Positions 3,978-9,774 are shown, numbered from the stretch's first letter. The stretch: 64,000 nucleotides of DNA from the human T2T-CHM13v2.0 reference genome, Homo sapiens (GCF_009914755.1 NC_060925.1); one strand, 5' to 3'. A program made the numbers and translations. Notes: generated by a model from the letters alone, not told the origin.

Positions 3978-5057
3978 GGAGGGGGTAGAGTTGGCCGGTT
4001 TGATTCCACTGTCCCTCTGCTGTGCAATGACATCTTGAAATCAGAAAGTTTAGAGAGTTTTCTTAGCCCAGCTAAAGATCTGAATAAACACATAGAGACA
4101 GAGGCCCCCAAAGAGGCCCGTGACCCATGACCTGCTTGGAAAATCCCACCCTGTCCGATGAGGCCCTGTAGGCTGGCTGCTCTTTCCTGGGGCGTGGATG
4201 TACTTCAGGTGTATGTTAGCTCCTGGAAATGTGACATAAAGTTATACCTTTTGTCAGATTCTTACAAAGGTCTCTGTACCCCCCAAAATTTGAAACCACT
4301 GCTTTGGGAGGGTGGGGTTTCTAGTTCCACAGCAGGCCTTGGGGGGCCTTGCACAGCGGCGGAAACCCACCAGTTTTGGCCCTAGCAGGCTCTTTTTGCT
4401 GGTTGAAGTCAGCAGAACCCCAGCCTCCAATGCCAGGCTCTTAAGTCTGTGAGGCATCGGTCATCTGTAAGCCAGGGAAGAGCTGTGCCCAGTGCCTGAT
4501 GCTTTTTGCCCTCACTGTGTCTCTGGTTCCCTCGCAGGCCGGCCAAGACTTCACCACGGCGTGCCCTCAGTGTGGAGGACGTGGGTGCTCCCAGCCTGGC
4601 TCGCACCGTGGGCCGCCTGGTGGAGGTGTTCCCAGACGGCACCAGCCAGCTGCAGCTGCAGCGCTCCCCAGGGGGCACTTTCGGCTTCTGCGTGGCCTCT
4701 GGGAATGGGCGCCCAGACTCAGGTATGCCCTCTCCTCTTCCTCAGCCCCATGGCTGGGGCGGCCTTAGCAAACAAGGCAGGGCCTTCTGGCTGTGGTCAG
4801 AGGCTTTTCTGGTCTTTGGCTGAGCCGTGCAGCTCTGGGAATTCAGAAAGCCTCTGACTACAGGACTAGGCTTCTCCCCTCAGGGGCTCTTTCTGAATTG
4901 TCCAGGGCTCTCTAGGAGTCTGCACCTGCAGAGCCTTTGCCCTAGGCAACTGCAGCTGAGAGTGCGTTGGTGGGGAGTGTGCGGGAGGGGGTAGAGTTGG
5001 CAGGTTTGACTCCACTGTCCCCCTGCTGTCTGATGACATCTTGAAATTAGAAGCTTA
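3978..5057 (+). repeat. Diverged ~75-bp direct repeat pair (3978-4053 and 4984-5057) flanking the 4538 exon
   Basis: GGAGGGGGTAGAGTTGGC(C/A)GGTTTGA(T/C)TCCACTGTCCC(T/C)CTGCTGT...ATGACATCTTGAAAT(C/T)AGAA in both copies. Confidence 0.9.
4538..4823 (+). CDS. KIAA1614: KIAA1614 exon; read-through form ends ...[36 protein letters not shown]; internal donor at 4722/4723
   Basis: Acceptor ggttccctcgcag| at 4537; ORF 4506..4823; internal tcag|gtatgc donor (phase 1). Confidence 0.88.
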
Positions 5058-5365
5058 GGCCGGGCGCAGTGGCTCATGCCTGTAATCCCAGAACTTTGGG
5101 AGGCCGAGGCGCCTGGATCACCTGAGGTCAGGAGTTCGAGACCAGTCTGGCCCACATGGTGAAACCCATGTCTACTAAAAATACAAAATTAGCTGGGCGT
5201 GGTGGCGCATGCCTATAATCCCAGCTACTTGGGAGGCTGAGGCAGGAGAATTGCTTGAACCCGGGAGGTAGAGGTTGCAGTGAGCCGAGATTGCGCCATT
5301 GCACTCCAGCCTGGGCAACAAGAGCAAAACTTCATCTCAAAGGAAAAAAAAAAGAAATAAATAAA
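5058..5365 (+). mobile_element. AluS (Sp/Sq-like) element
   Basis: ggccgggcgcagtggctcatgcc... to A-rich tail containing AATAAA at 5356 and 5360. Confidence 0.95.
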
Positions 5366-6019
5366 TTAGAATTTTGAAGGCCATCTTTGCAGAGGAGAGC
5401 CAGAGGGAAACTGTCTGTGCCTGCTGGTTCTCAGCAGTCCCTTTGATGTGGCTGCGTTGAAACGGTTCCTTTCCTCCGGCTGTGGAGTATGTCTGGGCAC
5501 GTGGAGCATGCCTGTCTGTCTCTGCATCCCGTCCCTCCCTCAGGCCTGTGCCCGATGATTATGTTCAGATGAATCCTGGCTGCAGGCCTCTGACTGGGGT
5601 GTGCTCTGGGTCTCAATTCAACCCAGGCAATGGCAGGGAGAAGTCCTGGACATCATTCTGCACTCTGACCAGTTCTCAGTTCCACCCCATCCATGAGTCT
5701 TTCAGGGCAACGTGACTTGCAAAAGCCCACGCCCAAGGTCTGTGGTCCAGAATGCATCTCAAGGGCCCATAAAAGACATTCCCCAGAGGATCAGGGAAGG
5801 AAGACACGTATGTGAGGGTGGGGAAGGAGGGGAGGGGAAGGAAGGAGAGAGAAAGGGAGAGACAGATACAGAAAGACGAACACAGAAGCCTGCTGCGGCC
5901 GGGCTCTGCCGATGGGGGGTTGAGTCCTGTGCTTTGATCTCCTAGCTCAATGCTGTTTAGCCTGGAAAAAAGTCTGCCTGCTACCACATTTGCAGACCAC
6001 AGCATGAGTTCTCATGTCT

Positions 6020-6949: not shown

Positions 6950-7080
6950 CTATGTGATCTAGAGCAGGCGACATCCCCACTGAGCCTCACTCAGTTCCCT
7001 AATCTGTGAAATGAGGATGACAAAACCTACCTAGAAGAGTCATAAGGAGCATTTGGTAAGGCACACAGGAAAGGGCCTAG
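6950..7080. mobile_element. MIR fragment
   Basis: tgagcctc...cagttccctaatctgtgaaatgaggatgac MIR core. Confidence 0.55.
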
Positions 7081-9580
7081 CATTTTTCTTCCCTCCCCTT
7101 CAGAAAGAGAAAGTCTGGAGAAGAGAACCCCAGACAGGGACCAGCGTGATCCGCATTCACCTGTCGATGTGAGTGCACACACAACAGGTCATTGTACTCT
7201 GCCGCCCACCCTCCCCCAGAGTCCCTTTTTGCTCCCTTGTAGGCAGTGGGAGCCCCTCCCTGTCACCCGTCAGGGAGCTCTGATGGGCAGGGGTCTCTAG
7301 TGACCCAGGGCCCCCGGCACCCTCGCCTGAGTTGGTGCCAGCTCCCCGTTGTGCCCAGGCACTCCCTGGTCCTGCTGCCGTCATGGGCGCTGGATGGCAC
7401 ACAGGGGTCCCCACGCACATGAAGCCTGGCGAGTGCTGGGGCCTCCGTGTCCCAGGCCATCCTCCAACAGCAGAGGGTCGCTTCTTCCAGGCTCCAAGGG
7501 GCTGTGAGGAGGGCTGGCTTGCGCCCCGCACTGAACCGGCAGGATGCTGGTATTAACTTGCTGGCTTTCACATCCGACTCTATATGAGCCTGTGAGAACA
7601 GCAGGCTTTGCCTTCTGCTTCTAATTGGATACAACATAGAGATCACACATCCTCAACAAAGGCCATTTCCAGCAGACAATAAATGCCTATGACAGCAGGC
7701 TGTCATATTTGTGTCACGAATTTCAGTTGCGAAACCTACCCGAGTCTCCCCAAAATGGCAGGCGTGACGTCAGTGTCTGGCCTAGCTCTGGCAGCATTCT
7801 TTCAGGGTTTATCATTAGTCCCCACCTGCAACTCCCACAGCACATCAGACACTTCTCTGGGTTTGCCCCAGGGGCCCCTTCTTACCTGCCCCCTCCCCGT
7901 GCCACCAACCCGTAGACAGGGAGGGCAAGCAGTGAAAGGTCCATCTAGAGGAGGTAAAAGACAGGGCTGAGGGAAAACGCCTTGTACAGTCAGGATGGCA
8001 GATGTACTCTGTCAGGGAAGACAGCCCCACAGAAAAGGCTCGGCTTGGCCAAGAAGCAACAAAAGGGATTCTACACCTCAGACCAGGGAGGGGGAATGTG
8101 TACAAAGATTGGATTTACTAAATTCAGAGCCACAGACTTTCAGGTACTTCGGTGAAGATCAGTGCTCTTTCAAACTCACACTTCAGAGGCAGGCTTTAAA
8201 ACGCCTGACTTCTGTCAGGGCCACAGGCTGGGCTGCCCAAAGCTCCTACGGGGCTGGGGGATCCGAGAGAGGACTTCCCACTAGTCCAAGATGTGGTGAC
8301 TAGTTTCAAGCCAGAGATTGAGGAGCAGACCTGATGCCCTTTCGGGCCCCTGCTAAGAACCTGATTCGAGGAAAAGGAAGTGAAGACAGTAACGCGTGGG
8401 CAGTGGCCTCATGTCTGAAATGCAGAGTGAGCCGAGCTGGGCTGGGAACAGCGAGGGTGCCAAAGGCTGCGCTGAGCAGCCTGAATTCCGCCAGTGCTGA
8501 TGCCCACACCAGGGGTGTGCCCCGCAGTCCCTCCAGCAAACTCAGCTTGTGTCTCAGCCCCTGTGTCCACCCAGCATGAAGCATGGGCATCAGGGGGTCC
8601 AGCCTGCCCTGGGAGAGCCAGCACCTCACTTACTCTCCCAGGTGGGAGCAGCTGGAGGGGAATTTGAAAGGTTTCCAGCCGCGGTTGAGGCCGGCGGGCG
8701 GGGGTTGGGGGCAGGGGGCCTCCTCAGCTGGACACTTCCCAGCCCAGCCAGCCCAAGCCCCACAGGGCCTGCCCCACTGACGGGGGGCTCCCTGAGAGCC
8801 GGAGCCTGGCAAAGAAGCAGAGAAGCTAGTTCCCGCAGGCTGGCTCTTGGCACCTTCTAGACCCAGGCAGGGCCTCTTTGGGGTGGGGAGGAGGGGGCAT
8901 GTGCAGAAGAGGAGAGGGAGCCACCGCAGCTTTGAAATATGTGGCTAGAATTTTTATTTTTCCTGGGGTTTTTTGCTCAGATGCTTCCCCATCCCAATTG
9001 AGGAGCCATATCTGAGTAAGACTGAGGCCAGTGTCAGTCTTTGGCAATAGAGTGCAGCAAACCAGGCTTGGATGTGGCTCAGCCACTTTTGCTCTTCCGA
9101 TGATACCTTCCCACCACCCCGGCCTTTACGCTGGGCCTGGGTGACCTGAGGCAGCAACTGGATCATAGTGCCAGGCACTGAGTAGGTATGGTTCCTAATT
9201 TTTAAAAACTATTTTCCTCCCAATTCTACAAGAAAAGCTCATCTCAGAAAAAGATCAGCTCACTCACTGTCAGGTATAAATAAATGACAACAGTTTAACG
9301 CGTTATTTGCACTAGGAGCATTTCCACTTTAAAAGCAGAGACAGTGGAATGGAGTTAGACCATGGAGGAGGCGCACTGTATCTATGTCTAAAGCCAGTTG
9401 TGGTTGTGAGATGGAATAATGAGGGGTGTGTGTATGTGTGCATGCGCACAGAGAAGTGCCTGGTATGAGCACCTCCTCCCTGTGCCACACAAACAGCACC
9501 TCATCAACATGGTCAGCATTCCAGAGATGCACTTCTTCGATTTGGGTGTCATTGTGAAATTCTCCTGTTTTCCTCTGCAG

Positions 9581-9774
9581 GGATCTACGTGCAGGAGATG
9601 GCTGACATGAGCATGGCCAAGCTGTACTCAGGGCTGCTGGGGGTGGGCGATGAGATCCTCGAGGTGAACGGGGCCAAGGTGGCAGGGCTGGGCTTGGCTC
9701 ACATTAAGGAGCTCCTGGCCCACTCAGAGAGCTTGTCAATCCGTGTCCTGAGGCAGAGACCTGTCCCACGGTGA
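9581..9774 (+). CDS. KIAA1614: Alternative terminal KIAA1614 exon encoding the C-terminal half of a PDZ domain (GIYVQEMADMSMAKLYSGLLGVGDEILEVNGAKVAGLGLAHIKELLAHSESLSIRVLRQRPVPR*)
   Basis: Strong acceptor ttctcctgttttcctctgcag| at 9580; phase 1 matches the 4722 donor; PDZ signature GD-x-I-L-E-V-N-G; stop TGA 9772-9774. Confidence 0.85.

What the first reader, a model, noticed from the sequence alone, without database searches (positions are those of the whole stretch)
4538..9774. Hidden terminal exon completes a Par6-like PDZ domain in KIAA1614
Seen: the 4538 exon encodes the first half of a PDZ ([20 protein letters not shown], carboxylate loop GTFGF) and has a phase-1 donor at 4723. A strong phase-1 acceptor 4858 nt downstream (9580) continues in frame: ...PDS-G-IYVQEM...SGLLGVGDEILEVNGAKVAGLGLAHIKELLAHSESLSIRVLRQRPVPR*. 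Knowledge: GLLGVGDEILEVNGAKVAG matches PARD6A GLLAVSDEILEVNGIEVAG at 15/19 positions (from memory), and GIYV aligns with Par6 GIFI. The human KIAA1614 protein I recall ends in the read-through tail ...AFLVFG, which cuts the PDZ in half. Inference: the functional product is a large uncharacterised Par6-related polarity scaffold, and the reference isoform is a PDZ-less truncation.
Basis: partly seen in the sequence, partly recalled or inferred. Interest (0 to 1): 0.9.

Follow-up and report, generated by a model that had tools for sequence, protein, structure and literature searches.

The report
KIAA1614 terminal exon completes Par6-type PDZ
The last two coding exons of human KIAA1614 splice together to encode a deeply conserved PDZ domain most similar to that of the polarity protein Par6, whereas the reference transcript keeps the intron and cuts the domain off; the splice form is already annotated.

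Summary
Exon 4538-4722 has a GT donor in phase 1, and exon 9581-9774 has a strong acceptor and a TGA stop. They join in frame as 125 residues with one terminal stop.

The exon is not hidden. The hub's RefSeq table already lists the 4722^9581 junction in the gene's second transcript. Of 182 stored orthologue proteins, 181 align across the junction and 166 end at the same last residue.

This C-terminal region is the most conserved part of the protein in six amniotes. The family extends to fish, sharks, amphioxus, echinoderms, annelid and brachiopod.

The RefSeq Select transcript retains the 4858-nt intron. It ends 33 non-conserved codons later and scores for no Pfam domain.

The Par6 likeness holds at the PDZ level:
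- Profiles that include fish or invertebrate members put Par6 entries on top of the PDB hits.
- The three human PARD6 loci are the nearest human loci to the exon.

It is not a Par6 family member, because no PB1 domain was found. A CRIB-like stretch before the PDZ is not significant on its own. Which isoform dominates in human tissue could not be tested.

The parts
256..496 (+). Upstream KIAA1614 coding exon, encoding ...[10 protein letters not shown]...APSLQSLHP. It is part of the conserved C-terminal region of about 200 residues.
   Evidence: Translation. The hub table gives the exon. The KKxPSLQSL-type motif aligns between vertebrate and invertebrate profiles.
3625..3752 (+). Upstream KIAA1614 coding exon, encoding [20 protein letters not shown]...
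   Evidence: Translation. It matches orthologue sequences.
4538..4722 (+). Penultimate coding exon of the spliced form. It encodes the conserved pre-PDZ extension (about 4566-4643) and PDZ beta1, the TFGF carboxylate loop and beta2 (about 4647-4722). It ends in phase 1.
   Evidence: Column conservation is (F48-G49-F50 in 178/178, P18 in 178/178). The Pfam PDZ starts 26 residues before the junction in orthologue P0005.
4723..4823 (+). Intronic sequence read as coding in RefSeq Select NM_020950.2: 33 codons plus TGA (4821-4823), starting at the GT donor 4723-4724.
   Evidence: The tail was found in only 1 of 351 stored proteins, an identical 83-aa fragment. Equivalent read-through tails of ORF fragments from other species are unlike one another.
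4723..9580 (+). Last intron, 4858 nt. It is removed in RefSeq's second transcript and retained in the Select transcript.
   Evidence: and the hub gene table. The donor is CAG|GTATGC. The acceptor is TTCTCCTGTTTTCCTCTGCAG|G, with 16 of 18 pyrimidines before CAG (my count on the output).
9581..9774 (+). Coding part of the terminal exon, covering PDZ beta3 to beta6 and the C-terminus. The stop is TGA at 9772-9774.
   Evidence: Pfam PDZ scores 26.8 bits on this piece alone. Orthologues are 79-97% identical. 166 of 182 orthologues end at the same residue.
9775..10855 (+). 3' UTR of the terminal exon.
   Evidence: Hub gene table. No AATAAA lies on the + strand between 9284 and 14503, and none is seen in 10780-10880.
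8931..10159 (-). Terminal exon of the antisense lncRNA KIAA1614-AS1. It covers the 3' splice site and the whole PDZ-coding stretch of the terminal exon.
   Evidence: Hub gene table. A minus-strand AATAAA at 8953-8958 lies 22 nt before the annotated AS1 end at 8931.

Best explanation
KIAA1614 encodes a long protein of about 1,220 residues. It carries one DUF4685 region and few other conserved blocks, and its ancestral, conserved product ends in a module encoded in this window. The module is a conserved extension of about 30 residues followed by a PDZ domain split by a phase-1 intron (4722|9581).

Shown here:
- The two exons join in frame, and the junction is already annotated.
- Orthologues from mammals, sauropsids, fish, sharks and many invertebrates carry the same C-terminal module.
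- The module is the best-conserved part of the protein.
- The RefSeq Select transcript retains the intron and replaces two thirds of the PDZ with 33 non-conserved residues.
- Par6 PDZs are the nearest known relatives of this PDZ.

Inferred:
- The spliced form is the functional PDZ-bearing product.
- It acts as an adaptor in which the C-terminal PDZ docks a partner peptide while the long upstream region carries short linear motifs. One such motif is the published USP8 rhodanese-binding peptide.
- The intron-retaining form is a PDZ-less variant, or a cDNA-derived annotation choice.
For: Junction and frame. RefSeq's second transcript uses exons 4538-4722 and 9581-10855 (hub table).

Orthologues:
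- P0005, P0007, P0082 and P0120 read ...GRPDSG|IYVQEM... or close variants straight across the junction.
- 181 of 182 align across the junction, 175 without a gap near it, and 166 end at the same residue.
- 68 of 125 columns are at least 95% conserved in 178 orthologues.
- The last 125 residues are the most conserved stretch in six amniotes: 30-31 of 50 invariant, against 0-23 elsewhere.

Domain calls:
- Pfam PDZ scores 34.7 bits over profile positions 1-74 of 81 in P0005, together with DUF4685.
- The read-through end matches 0 Pfam families.

Family depth:
- Invertebrate and fish members appear.
- hhalign of vertebrate against invertebrate profiles gives 99.9%, E 2.7e-35.
- Per-domain scores are at least 56.8 bits for family members, against 25.2 bits or less for other PDZ proteins.

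Par6 relation:
- PDB profile searches.
- Human genome searches.
- hhalign.
- In a 78-domain panel, the three Par6 domains score 44.6-45.6 bits and the next scores 33.2.

Published context: the USP8-binding peptide 568-583 has KD 10 uM, in a paper that still calls the protein uncharacterised (PMC12057046, passages).
Against: - RefSeq marks the read-through transcript as Select, so curators had evidence for it.
- I had no RNA-seq, Ribo-seq or proteomics to weigh the two forms.
- The only structure model, of rodent-like fragment P0048, was poor (mean pLDDT 46.9). The fold rests on sequence profiles alone.
- Par6 is not separated from other PDZs with one whole orthologue (PDZD7 on top, human PARD6A 15th of 21). 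It is not separated with amniote-only profiles either: a designed consensus PDZ scores 23.5 against 21.8 for PARD6A, and the panel gives no separation.
- No binding partner of the PDZ is known.
Confidence: 0.82

Rival explanations
1. In humans the intron-retaining, PDZ-less protein is the principal product. The spliced PDZ form is a minor or tissue-restricted isoform, so the retained intron acts as a regulated switch and not as an annotation artefact.
For: RefSeq marks NM_020950.2, the read-through form, as Select (hub table). An antisense lncRNA exon (8931-10159, minus strand) lies over the acceptor and could in principle hinder its use (hub table). The human sequence differs from the >=80% orthologue consensus at two module positions, L27 and M73.
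Against: The human exon is intact and keeps every family-wide invariant residue. The splice signals are strong. The read-through tail is not conserved. The form removes the most conserved part of the protein. The M73 variant is shared by 11 of 178 orthologues.
Confidence: 0.2
2. The PDZ is a generic PDZ. Its resemblance to Par6 reflects shared PDZ consensus in the beta4-beta5 segment and not a specific relationship.
For: A designed consensus PDZ scores as well as or better than Par6 (25.8 vs 26.6; 23.5 vs 21.8; 22.2 vs 21.6 bits). With whole orthologue P0005, PDZD7 is on top and PARD6A is 15th of 21. The amniote-only HMM gives no separation.
Against: Profiles with older lineages put all 8 Par6 PDB sequences on top, 10-25 bits above the next natural PDZ. 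In one search PARD6A is on top, the other 7 follow the designed consensus PDZ, and all 8 lie 7-14 bits above the next natural PDZ. Six-frame searches of the whole human genome return the three PARD6 loci as the best non-self hits, both for an invertebrate member and for the human exon itself. An amphioxus member was auto-named PARD6A by its depositor's pipeline.
Confidence: 0.1
3. The whole C-terminal module, extension plus PDZ, is homologous to the Par6 semi-CRIB-PDZ unit and binds a GTP-loaded Rho-family GTPase that tunes the PDZ, as Cdc42 does for Par6.
For: HMMER and hhalign alignments run through the Par6B semi-CRIB, matching the P, R and V/I positions of ISMPQDFRPV to the family's P-x3-R-x-[VI]-G. 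The extension is as conserved as the PDZ core across bilaterians. A 2023 paper's table lists KIAA1614 under GO:0017048 Rho GTPase binding, with no source given (PMC11249618, passage). The poor model places two extra strands before PDZ beta1.
Against: An extension-only HMM scores the Par6 pre-PDZ segments at -0.0, 0.6 and 4.7 bits. These scores are reached by 90, 92 and 7 of 1000 shuffles, so the match is not significant on its own. Pfam's PBD/CRIB model hits 0 of 21 invertebrate members. The vertebrate extension lacks the Phe of the motif.
Confidence: 0.2

Closest known systems
Par6 (PARD6A, PARD6B, PARD6G; fly Par-6) PDZ and semi-CRIB-PDZ module
   Same: It is the nearest solved and nearest human PDZ. 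Scores reach 51.7-63.1 bits with the invertebrate profile, 34.6-41.5 with the vertebrate profile and 50.9-56.6 with the mixed profile. Shared features in the printed alignments include P-[LF]-G-F-Y-I in older lineages, G-I-F/Y-[IV], GLLxVxDE[IV]LEVNG and [ST]LDQVT. Both have a conserved stretch directly before the PDZ.
   Different: There is no PB1 domain, and the CRIB likeness is not significant. The PDZ sits at the extreme C-terminus of a protein of about 700-1850 residues (80 of 82 members). The Par6 beta2-beta3 loop is 8 residues longer (gaps). The PARD6 PDZs lie in one open frame, so the phase-1 intron is not shared.
C9orf50 (DUF4685-containing disordered protein)
   Same: It shares Pfam DUF4685. 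KIAA1614 orthologues score 145-170 bits, and C9ORF50 is described as harbouring DUF4685 (PMC12747536, passage).
   Different: In the passage read, C9ORF50 is described as an almost wholly disordered protein that drives phase separation, and the paper's abstract calls it a splicing regulator. No PDZ is mentioned there. The DUF4685 part of KIAA1614 lies upstream of this window and was not studied here.
Terminal intron-retention isoforms that truncate a C-terminal domain
   Same: One transcript keeps the last intron and shares its 3' end with the spliced form (hub table). Translation runs into the intron and stops after 33 codons.
   Different: Here the retaining form is the one chosen as the reference transcript, and it removes the gene's most conserved domain.

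Membership tests
PDZ domain (Pfam PF00595) | Score above Pfam's gathering cut-off over most of the profile | tested here: met
   The last-exon piece alone scores 26.8 bits against 23.2, over profile positions 27-74 of 81. Orthologue P0005, with the same junction peptide, scores 34.7 bits over 1-74 of 81. The human spliced peptide itself could not be handed to the Pfam tool because it is a joined sequence.
PDZ domain (Pfam PF00595) | Carboxylate-binding loop of the form x-hydrophobic-G-hydrophobic (GLGF type) | tested here: met
   The human loop is T-F-G-F. F48, G49 and F50 are present in 178 of 178 orthologues, and G.FGF is at least 90% conserved across 56 family sequences.
PDZ domain (Pfam PF00595) | Six-strand, two-helix PDZ fold | tested here: inconclusive
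   The AF2 model of fragment P0048 has mean pLDDT 46.9. The order of its secondary structure fits a PDZ, but residues 106-143 are below 50.
Par6 family (PARD6A/B/G) | N-terminal PB1 domain | tested here: not met
   No PB1 hit was found in 3 orthologues, in 45 distant hits or in 21 invertebrate members.
Par6 family (PARD6A/B/G) | Semi-CRIB motif directly before the PDZ | tested here: inconclusive
   Profile alignments run through ISMPQDFRPV of PARD6B. The extension-only HMM is matched or beaten by 90, 92 and 7 of 1000 shuffles. Pfam PBD hits 0 of 21 members.
Par6 family (PARD6A/B/G) | PDZ closer to Par6 PDZs than to other PDZs | tested here: met
   Met (all-family and invertebrate HMMs). Not met with one whole orthologue or amniote-only profiles.
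Par6 family (PARD6A/B/G) | Binding of Cdc42-GTP, aPKC and polarity ligands | not testable with these tools
   No binding data are available. The only trace is a GO:0017048 label in a table of PMC11249618, with no source stated.
KIAA1614 / DUF4685-PDZ family | C-terminal module (KKxPSLQSL motif, extension, PDZ) ending within a few residues of the C-terminus | tested here: met
   The human spliced end aligns to 181 of 182 orthologues. It keeps all family-wide invariant residues. 80 of 82 representatives end within 15 residues after the PDZ.
KIAA1614 / DUF4685-PDZ family | DUF4685 (PF15737) in the N-terminal half | not tested
   This part of the human gene lies upstream of the window. It is present in the vertebrate orthologues scanned. 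It was not detected in the invertebrate members: 16 of the 45 hits and 21 of 21.

The most novel reading that the evidence does not exclude
KIAA1614 is the vertebrate member of a bilaterian-wide, unstudied family. Its C-terminal extension-plus-PDZ would be a true counterpart of the Par6 semi-CRIB-PDZ switch, binding a GTP-loaded Rho-family GTPase that gates the PDZ. In humans, retention of the last intron would turn this module off, possibly favoured by the antisense KIAA1614-AS1 exon lying over the acceptor. Because the reference transcript is the 'off' form, coding variants in 9581-9774 are read as 3' UTR.
Probability: 0.15. Interest if true: 0.7.

Novelty: already known. Interest (0 to 1): 0.35.

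Why it matters
- Variant annotation: if pipelines annotate against the RefSeq Select transcript, changes in 9581-9774 are labelled 3' UTR, although they fall in the most conserved coding part of the gene. That is a concrete point for transcript curators and for variant interpretation.
- Biology: the gene remains uncharacterised in the papers I could search. Knowing that its conserved product ends in a Par6-type PDZ, and that the family reaches back to invertebrates, gives a direct handle for experiments. PDZ ligand screens and GTPase binding tests are the obvious ones.

Tried and rejected
- The first-exon piece alone found no PDZ in the PDB (2 spurious hits) and none in Pfam. It is too short on its own.
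- The AF2 model from 27 amniote orthologues was too poor to use (mean pLDDT 46.9). There is therefore no structural comparison.
- The own-genome search does not take an alignment, so I used single proteins.
- The CRIB idea failed two tests. Pfam PBD hit 0 of 21 members, and the extension-only HMM was not significant against shuffles. I keep it only as a minority reading.
- The intron position is not shared with the PARD6 genes, so it gives no extra support for common descent.
- Literature searches: KIAA1614 returned 77 papers (30 listed). KIAA1614+PDZ returned 8, none about its PDZ in the listing or in the two I opened. KIAA1614+Par6 returned 0. KIAA1614+PARD6 returned 2; the one I opened is a gene list, the other I judged from its listing only. 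KIAA1614+'intron retention' returned 0. PTHR14102 returned 0.
- My recollection that PANTHER files the gene under 'PAR-6-related' is unverified.
- No canonical AATAAA was found near the annotated 3' end at 10855. I did not follow this up.
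Full report
**Observation**

- Exon 4538-4722 ends ...GACTCAG and is followed by GTATGC.
- If the intron is read through, the frame runs 33 more codons to TGA at 4821-4823, and the peptide ends AFLVFG.
- The stretch upstream of 9581 is TTCTCCTGTTTTCCTCTGCAG, and the exon begins GGATCTAC.
- The donor leaves one base (G) and the acceptor supplies GG, making a Gly codon. 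The frame then reads IYVQEM...RQRPVPR to TGA at 9772-9774.
- A script that joined the exons by coordinates gave 378 nt, 125 residues and one terminal stop. The intron is 4858 nt.

**The exon is not hidden**

The hub's RefSeq table lists 'exons of other transcripts 4538-4722, 9581-10855', so the junction is already annotated. The Select transcript NM_020950.2 has a single last exon, 4538-10855. It is therefore the same transcript end with the last intron retained.

**Conservation**

The 63-residue last-exon peptide found 193 proteins at E <= 0.001 (120 listed). These were KIAA1614 orthologues of mammals and a gecko at 79-97% identity, nearly all with precomputed PDZ and DUF4685.

A search with the gecko C-terminus found 326 proteins (120 listed). 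They included squamates, turtles, crocodilians, birds and echidna.

Four orthologues that I read in full run straight across the human junction position.

| Measure | Result |
|---|---|
| Stored orthologues aligning across the junction | 181 of 182 |
| Without a gap within 8 residues of it | 175 of 182 |
| With the local alignment reaching the same last residue | 166 of 182 |
| Columns at least 95% conserved (4 odd rows dropped: P0012, P0034, P0121, P0123) | 68 of 125, in 178 orthologues |
| Invariant residues per 50 across six amniotes, last 125 residues | 30-31 |
| Invariant residues per 50 across six amniotes, elsewhere | 0-23 |

Most of the remaining orthologues end one or two residues from the same last residue.

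Human differs from the >=80% consensus at only two positions. These are L27, and M73, where 165 of 178 have T and 11 share M.

The read-through tail is different. Among 351 stored proteins it occurs only in an identical 83-residue fragment. ORF fragments from other species that read into their own introns diverge from each other immediately after the junction Gly.

**Domain**

- The last-exon piece alone passes Pfam PDZ (26.8 bits against 23.2). The first-exon piece and the read-through end give nothing.
- Whole orthologues give PDZ over profile positions 1-74 of 81 (34.7 bits in P0005), together with DUF4685 near residue 350-480 and nothing else.
- The PDZ starts 26 residues before the junction, so the upstream exon carries roughly the first third.
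- The one structure model I obtained was poor (mean pLDDT 46.9). I do not lean on it.

**A wider family**

A full HMMER scan of 1.84 billion representatives with the 184-residue fragment P0048 found 430 proteins at E <= 0.001.

- Per-domain scores fall from at least 56.8 bits for family members to 25.2 bits or less for any other PDZ protein.
- 80 of 82 representatives that cover the whole PDZ end within 15 residues after it.
- I scanned 45 of the most distant of the 150 listed. Eleven had DUF4685. Sixteen of about 700-1850 residues had only a C-terminal PDZ, as did most of the eight shorter fragments. Ten were multi-PDZ scaffolds: six of MPDZ/PATJ type (three with L27 domains), two of PTPN13 type, one of MAGI type and one with PDZ domains only. 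None had PB1.
- A named search showed that the DUF4685-less group are invertebrate proteins: annelid Owenia, Lingula, hemichordates, amphioxus, crinoids, brittle star, sea urchin, sea cucumbers and a nemertean.
- Their next-best hits are fish, sturgeon and shark KIAA1614.
- Vertebrate and invertebrate profiles align over 197 columns at 99.9% probability, E 2.7e-35. The alignment covers a KKxPSLQSL-type motif, a pre-PDZ extension and the PDZ.

They do.

**Is it Par6-like?**

The answer depends on how much of the family is used, and I give all results.

| Query | Result |
|---|---|
| Last exon alone | PARD6A on top at 26.6 bits; designed consensus PDZ 25.8; Par6 sequences are 6 of the top 8 |
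| Whole squirrel-monkey orthologue | PDZD7 23.6; fly Par-6 21.6; human PARD6A 19.6, 15th of 21 |
| Amniote profile, 27 sequences | Consensus PDZ 23.5; PARD6A 21.8 |
| Vertebrate profile including fish, 24 sequences | PARD6A 41.5; consensus PDZ 38.4; seven more Par6 at 34.6-36.9; scribble 27.5 |
| Mixed profile, 61 sequences | Eight Par6 sequences at 50.9-56.6; consensus PDZ 40.8; MPP1 38.0 |
| Invertebrate profile, 21 sequences | Eight Par6 at 51.7-63.1; PALS1 37.9 |

Two independent checks agree with the profile results.

- A six-frame search of the whole human genome with an invertebrate member returned six places. Two were the KIAA1614 exons. The others were loci on contigs 20, 16 and 18, and a PDZ with an in-frame stop on contig 14.
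- The contig 20 and 16 loci are PARD6B and PARD6A: 101 of 102 and 99 of 99 identical to PDB chains. The contig 18 locus is 88% identical to PARD6B.
- The human exon peptide itself gave self at 122 bits, then the same three loci at 27.3, 26.9 and 26.8 bits, then 20.6 and 20.1. The tool scores only the candidates of a loose first look, so this ranking is supportive and not exhaustive.
- hhalign against a PARD6B segment gave 98.7% (E 2.4e-16) for the invertebrate profile and 97.3% (E 2.5e-11) for the vertebrate profile.
- A PDZ-only family HMM was run on a panel of 78 domains. It scored the three Par6 domains at 44.6-45.6 bits and the next at 33.2. The amniote-only HMM did not separate them: 28.8, 28.0, then a non-Par6 at 26.9, then 26.3.

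I conclude that the PDZ is of Par6 type and that the likeness has eroded in amniotes.

**It is not a Par6**

There is no PB1 in any protein scanned. The PDZ is C-terminal in a long protein. The PARD6 PDZs lie in one open frame, so the intron is not shared.

The profile alignments do run through the Par6B semi-CRIB (ISMPQDFRPV). They match the family's invariant P, R and V/I.

However, an HMM of the extension alone scores the three Par6 pre-PDZ segments at only -0.0, 0.6 and 4.7 bits. Those scores are reached by 90, 92 and 7 of 1000 shuffles. Pfam's CRIB model hits 0 of 21 members. The CRIB reading is therefore a lead, not a result.

**What is in print**

- 77 papers mention KIAA1614. Those I opened treat it as a marker or as uncharacterised.
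- A 2025 paper calls it 'the uncharacterised protein' and shows that its peptide 568-583 binds the USP8 rhodanese domain with KD 10 uM (PMC12057046, passages).
- The mouse gene BC034090 is 'uncharacterized' in a bone QTL study (PMC8184749, passages).
- DUF4685 is mentioned only for C9ORF50 (PMC12747536, passage).
- No paper pairs KIAA1614 with Par6. Of the two that pair it with PARD6, the one I opened is a gene list.
- One of those lists labels KIAA1614 GO:0017048 'Rho GTPase binding' (PMC11249618, Table 3 passage). This suggests that a database already files it near Par6.
- I recall a PANTHER 'PAR-6-related' family, but I could not verify it.
- An amphioxus orthologue carries the automatic name PARD6A.

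**Mechanism**

Shown:
- There are two transcript forms that differ only in removal of the last intron.
- The spliced form ends in the conserved extension-plus-PDZ.
- The retaining form keeps the extension and beta1-beta2, then adds 33 unconserved residues.

Inferred:
- The PDZ-bearing form is the ancestral functional product. It would be an adaptor whose long upstream region carries short motifs and whose C-terminal PDZ docks a partner.
- The PDZ-less form cannot bind PDZ ligands.

Which form prevails in human tissue is open.

**Verdict**

The Par6-type call is supported at the domain level. The 'hidden exon' claim fails, because the junction and the domain are already annotated. The interest lies in the choice of reference transcript and in an unstudied, ancient Par6-type PDZ family.

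Noticed in passing
window 8931-10159 (minus strand): The terminal exon of KIAA1614-AS1 lies over the KIAA1614 3' splice site (9580/9581) and the whole PDZ-coding stretch. A minus-strand AATAAA at 8953-8958 sits 22 nt before the annotated AS1 end. An antisense RNA over an acceptor could influence retention of the intron; this was not tested.
   Followed up: partly
window 257-496 and 4539-4600: Conserved basic-Ser motifs lie just upstream of the [13 protein letters not shown] and [10 protein letters not shown]10, S11 and D14 of the second motif are present in 177-178 of 178 orthologues. They look like basophilic-kinase or 14-3-3-type sites, which is my recollection of such motifs and was not tested.
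   Followed up: no
window 9613-9615 (residue 73 of the 125-residue piece): Human has Met where 165 of 178 orthologues have Thr, and 11 share Met. Human also has Leu at residue 27 where 160 of 178 have Val.
   Followed up: partly
P0330 (amphioxus, 1120 aa): A family member from Branchiostoma lanceolatum carries the automatic name 'PARD6A' although it is a long protein with only a C-terminal PDZ. This is an annotation transfer that reflects the PDZ likeness.
   Followed up: no
P0123 (968 aa, source 'metaclust'): This protein scored 365 bits against a 124-residue query region and holds two copies of the PDZ core motif, at residues 710 and 926. It may be a tandem duplication or an assembly artefact.
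   Followed up: no
L006 (own genome, contig 14, 65535821-65536069, minus strand): A PDZ-like open frame with one in-frame TGA. By recollection it resembles harmonin PDZ1, so it may be a processed pseudogene. I did not check.
   Followed up: no
window 31972-64000 (STX6) and neighbours: The STX6-KIAA1614-IER5 neighbourhood is also found in the yellow catfish sex-determining region. [quoted passage not shown]
   Followed up: no
mouse orthologue BC034090 (not in the window): Three missense variants predicted deleterious by SIFT in BC034090 made it a candidate gene at a mouse chromosome 1 bone-morphology QTL. The authors then favoured Qsox1 (PMC8184749, passages).
   Followed up: no
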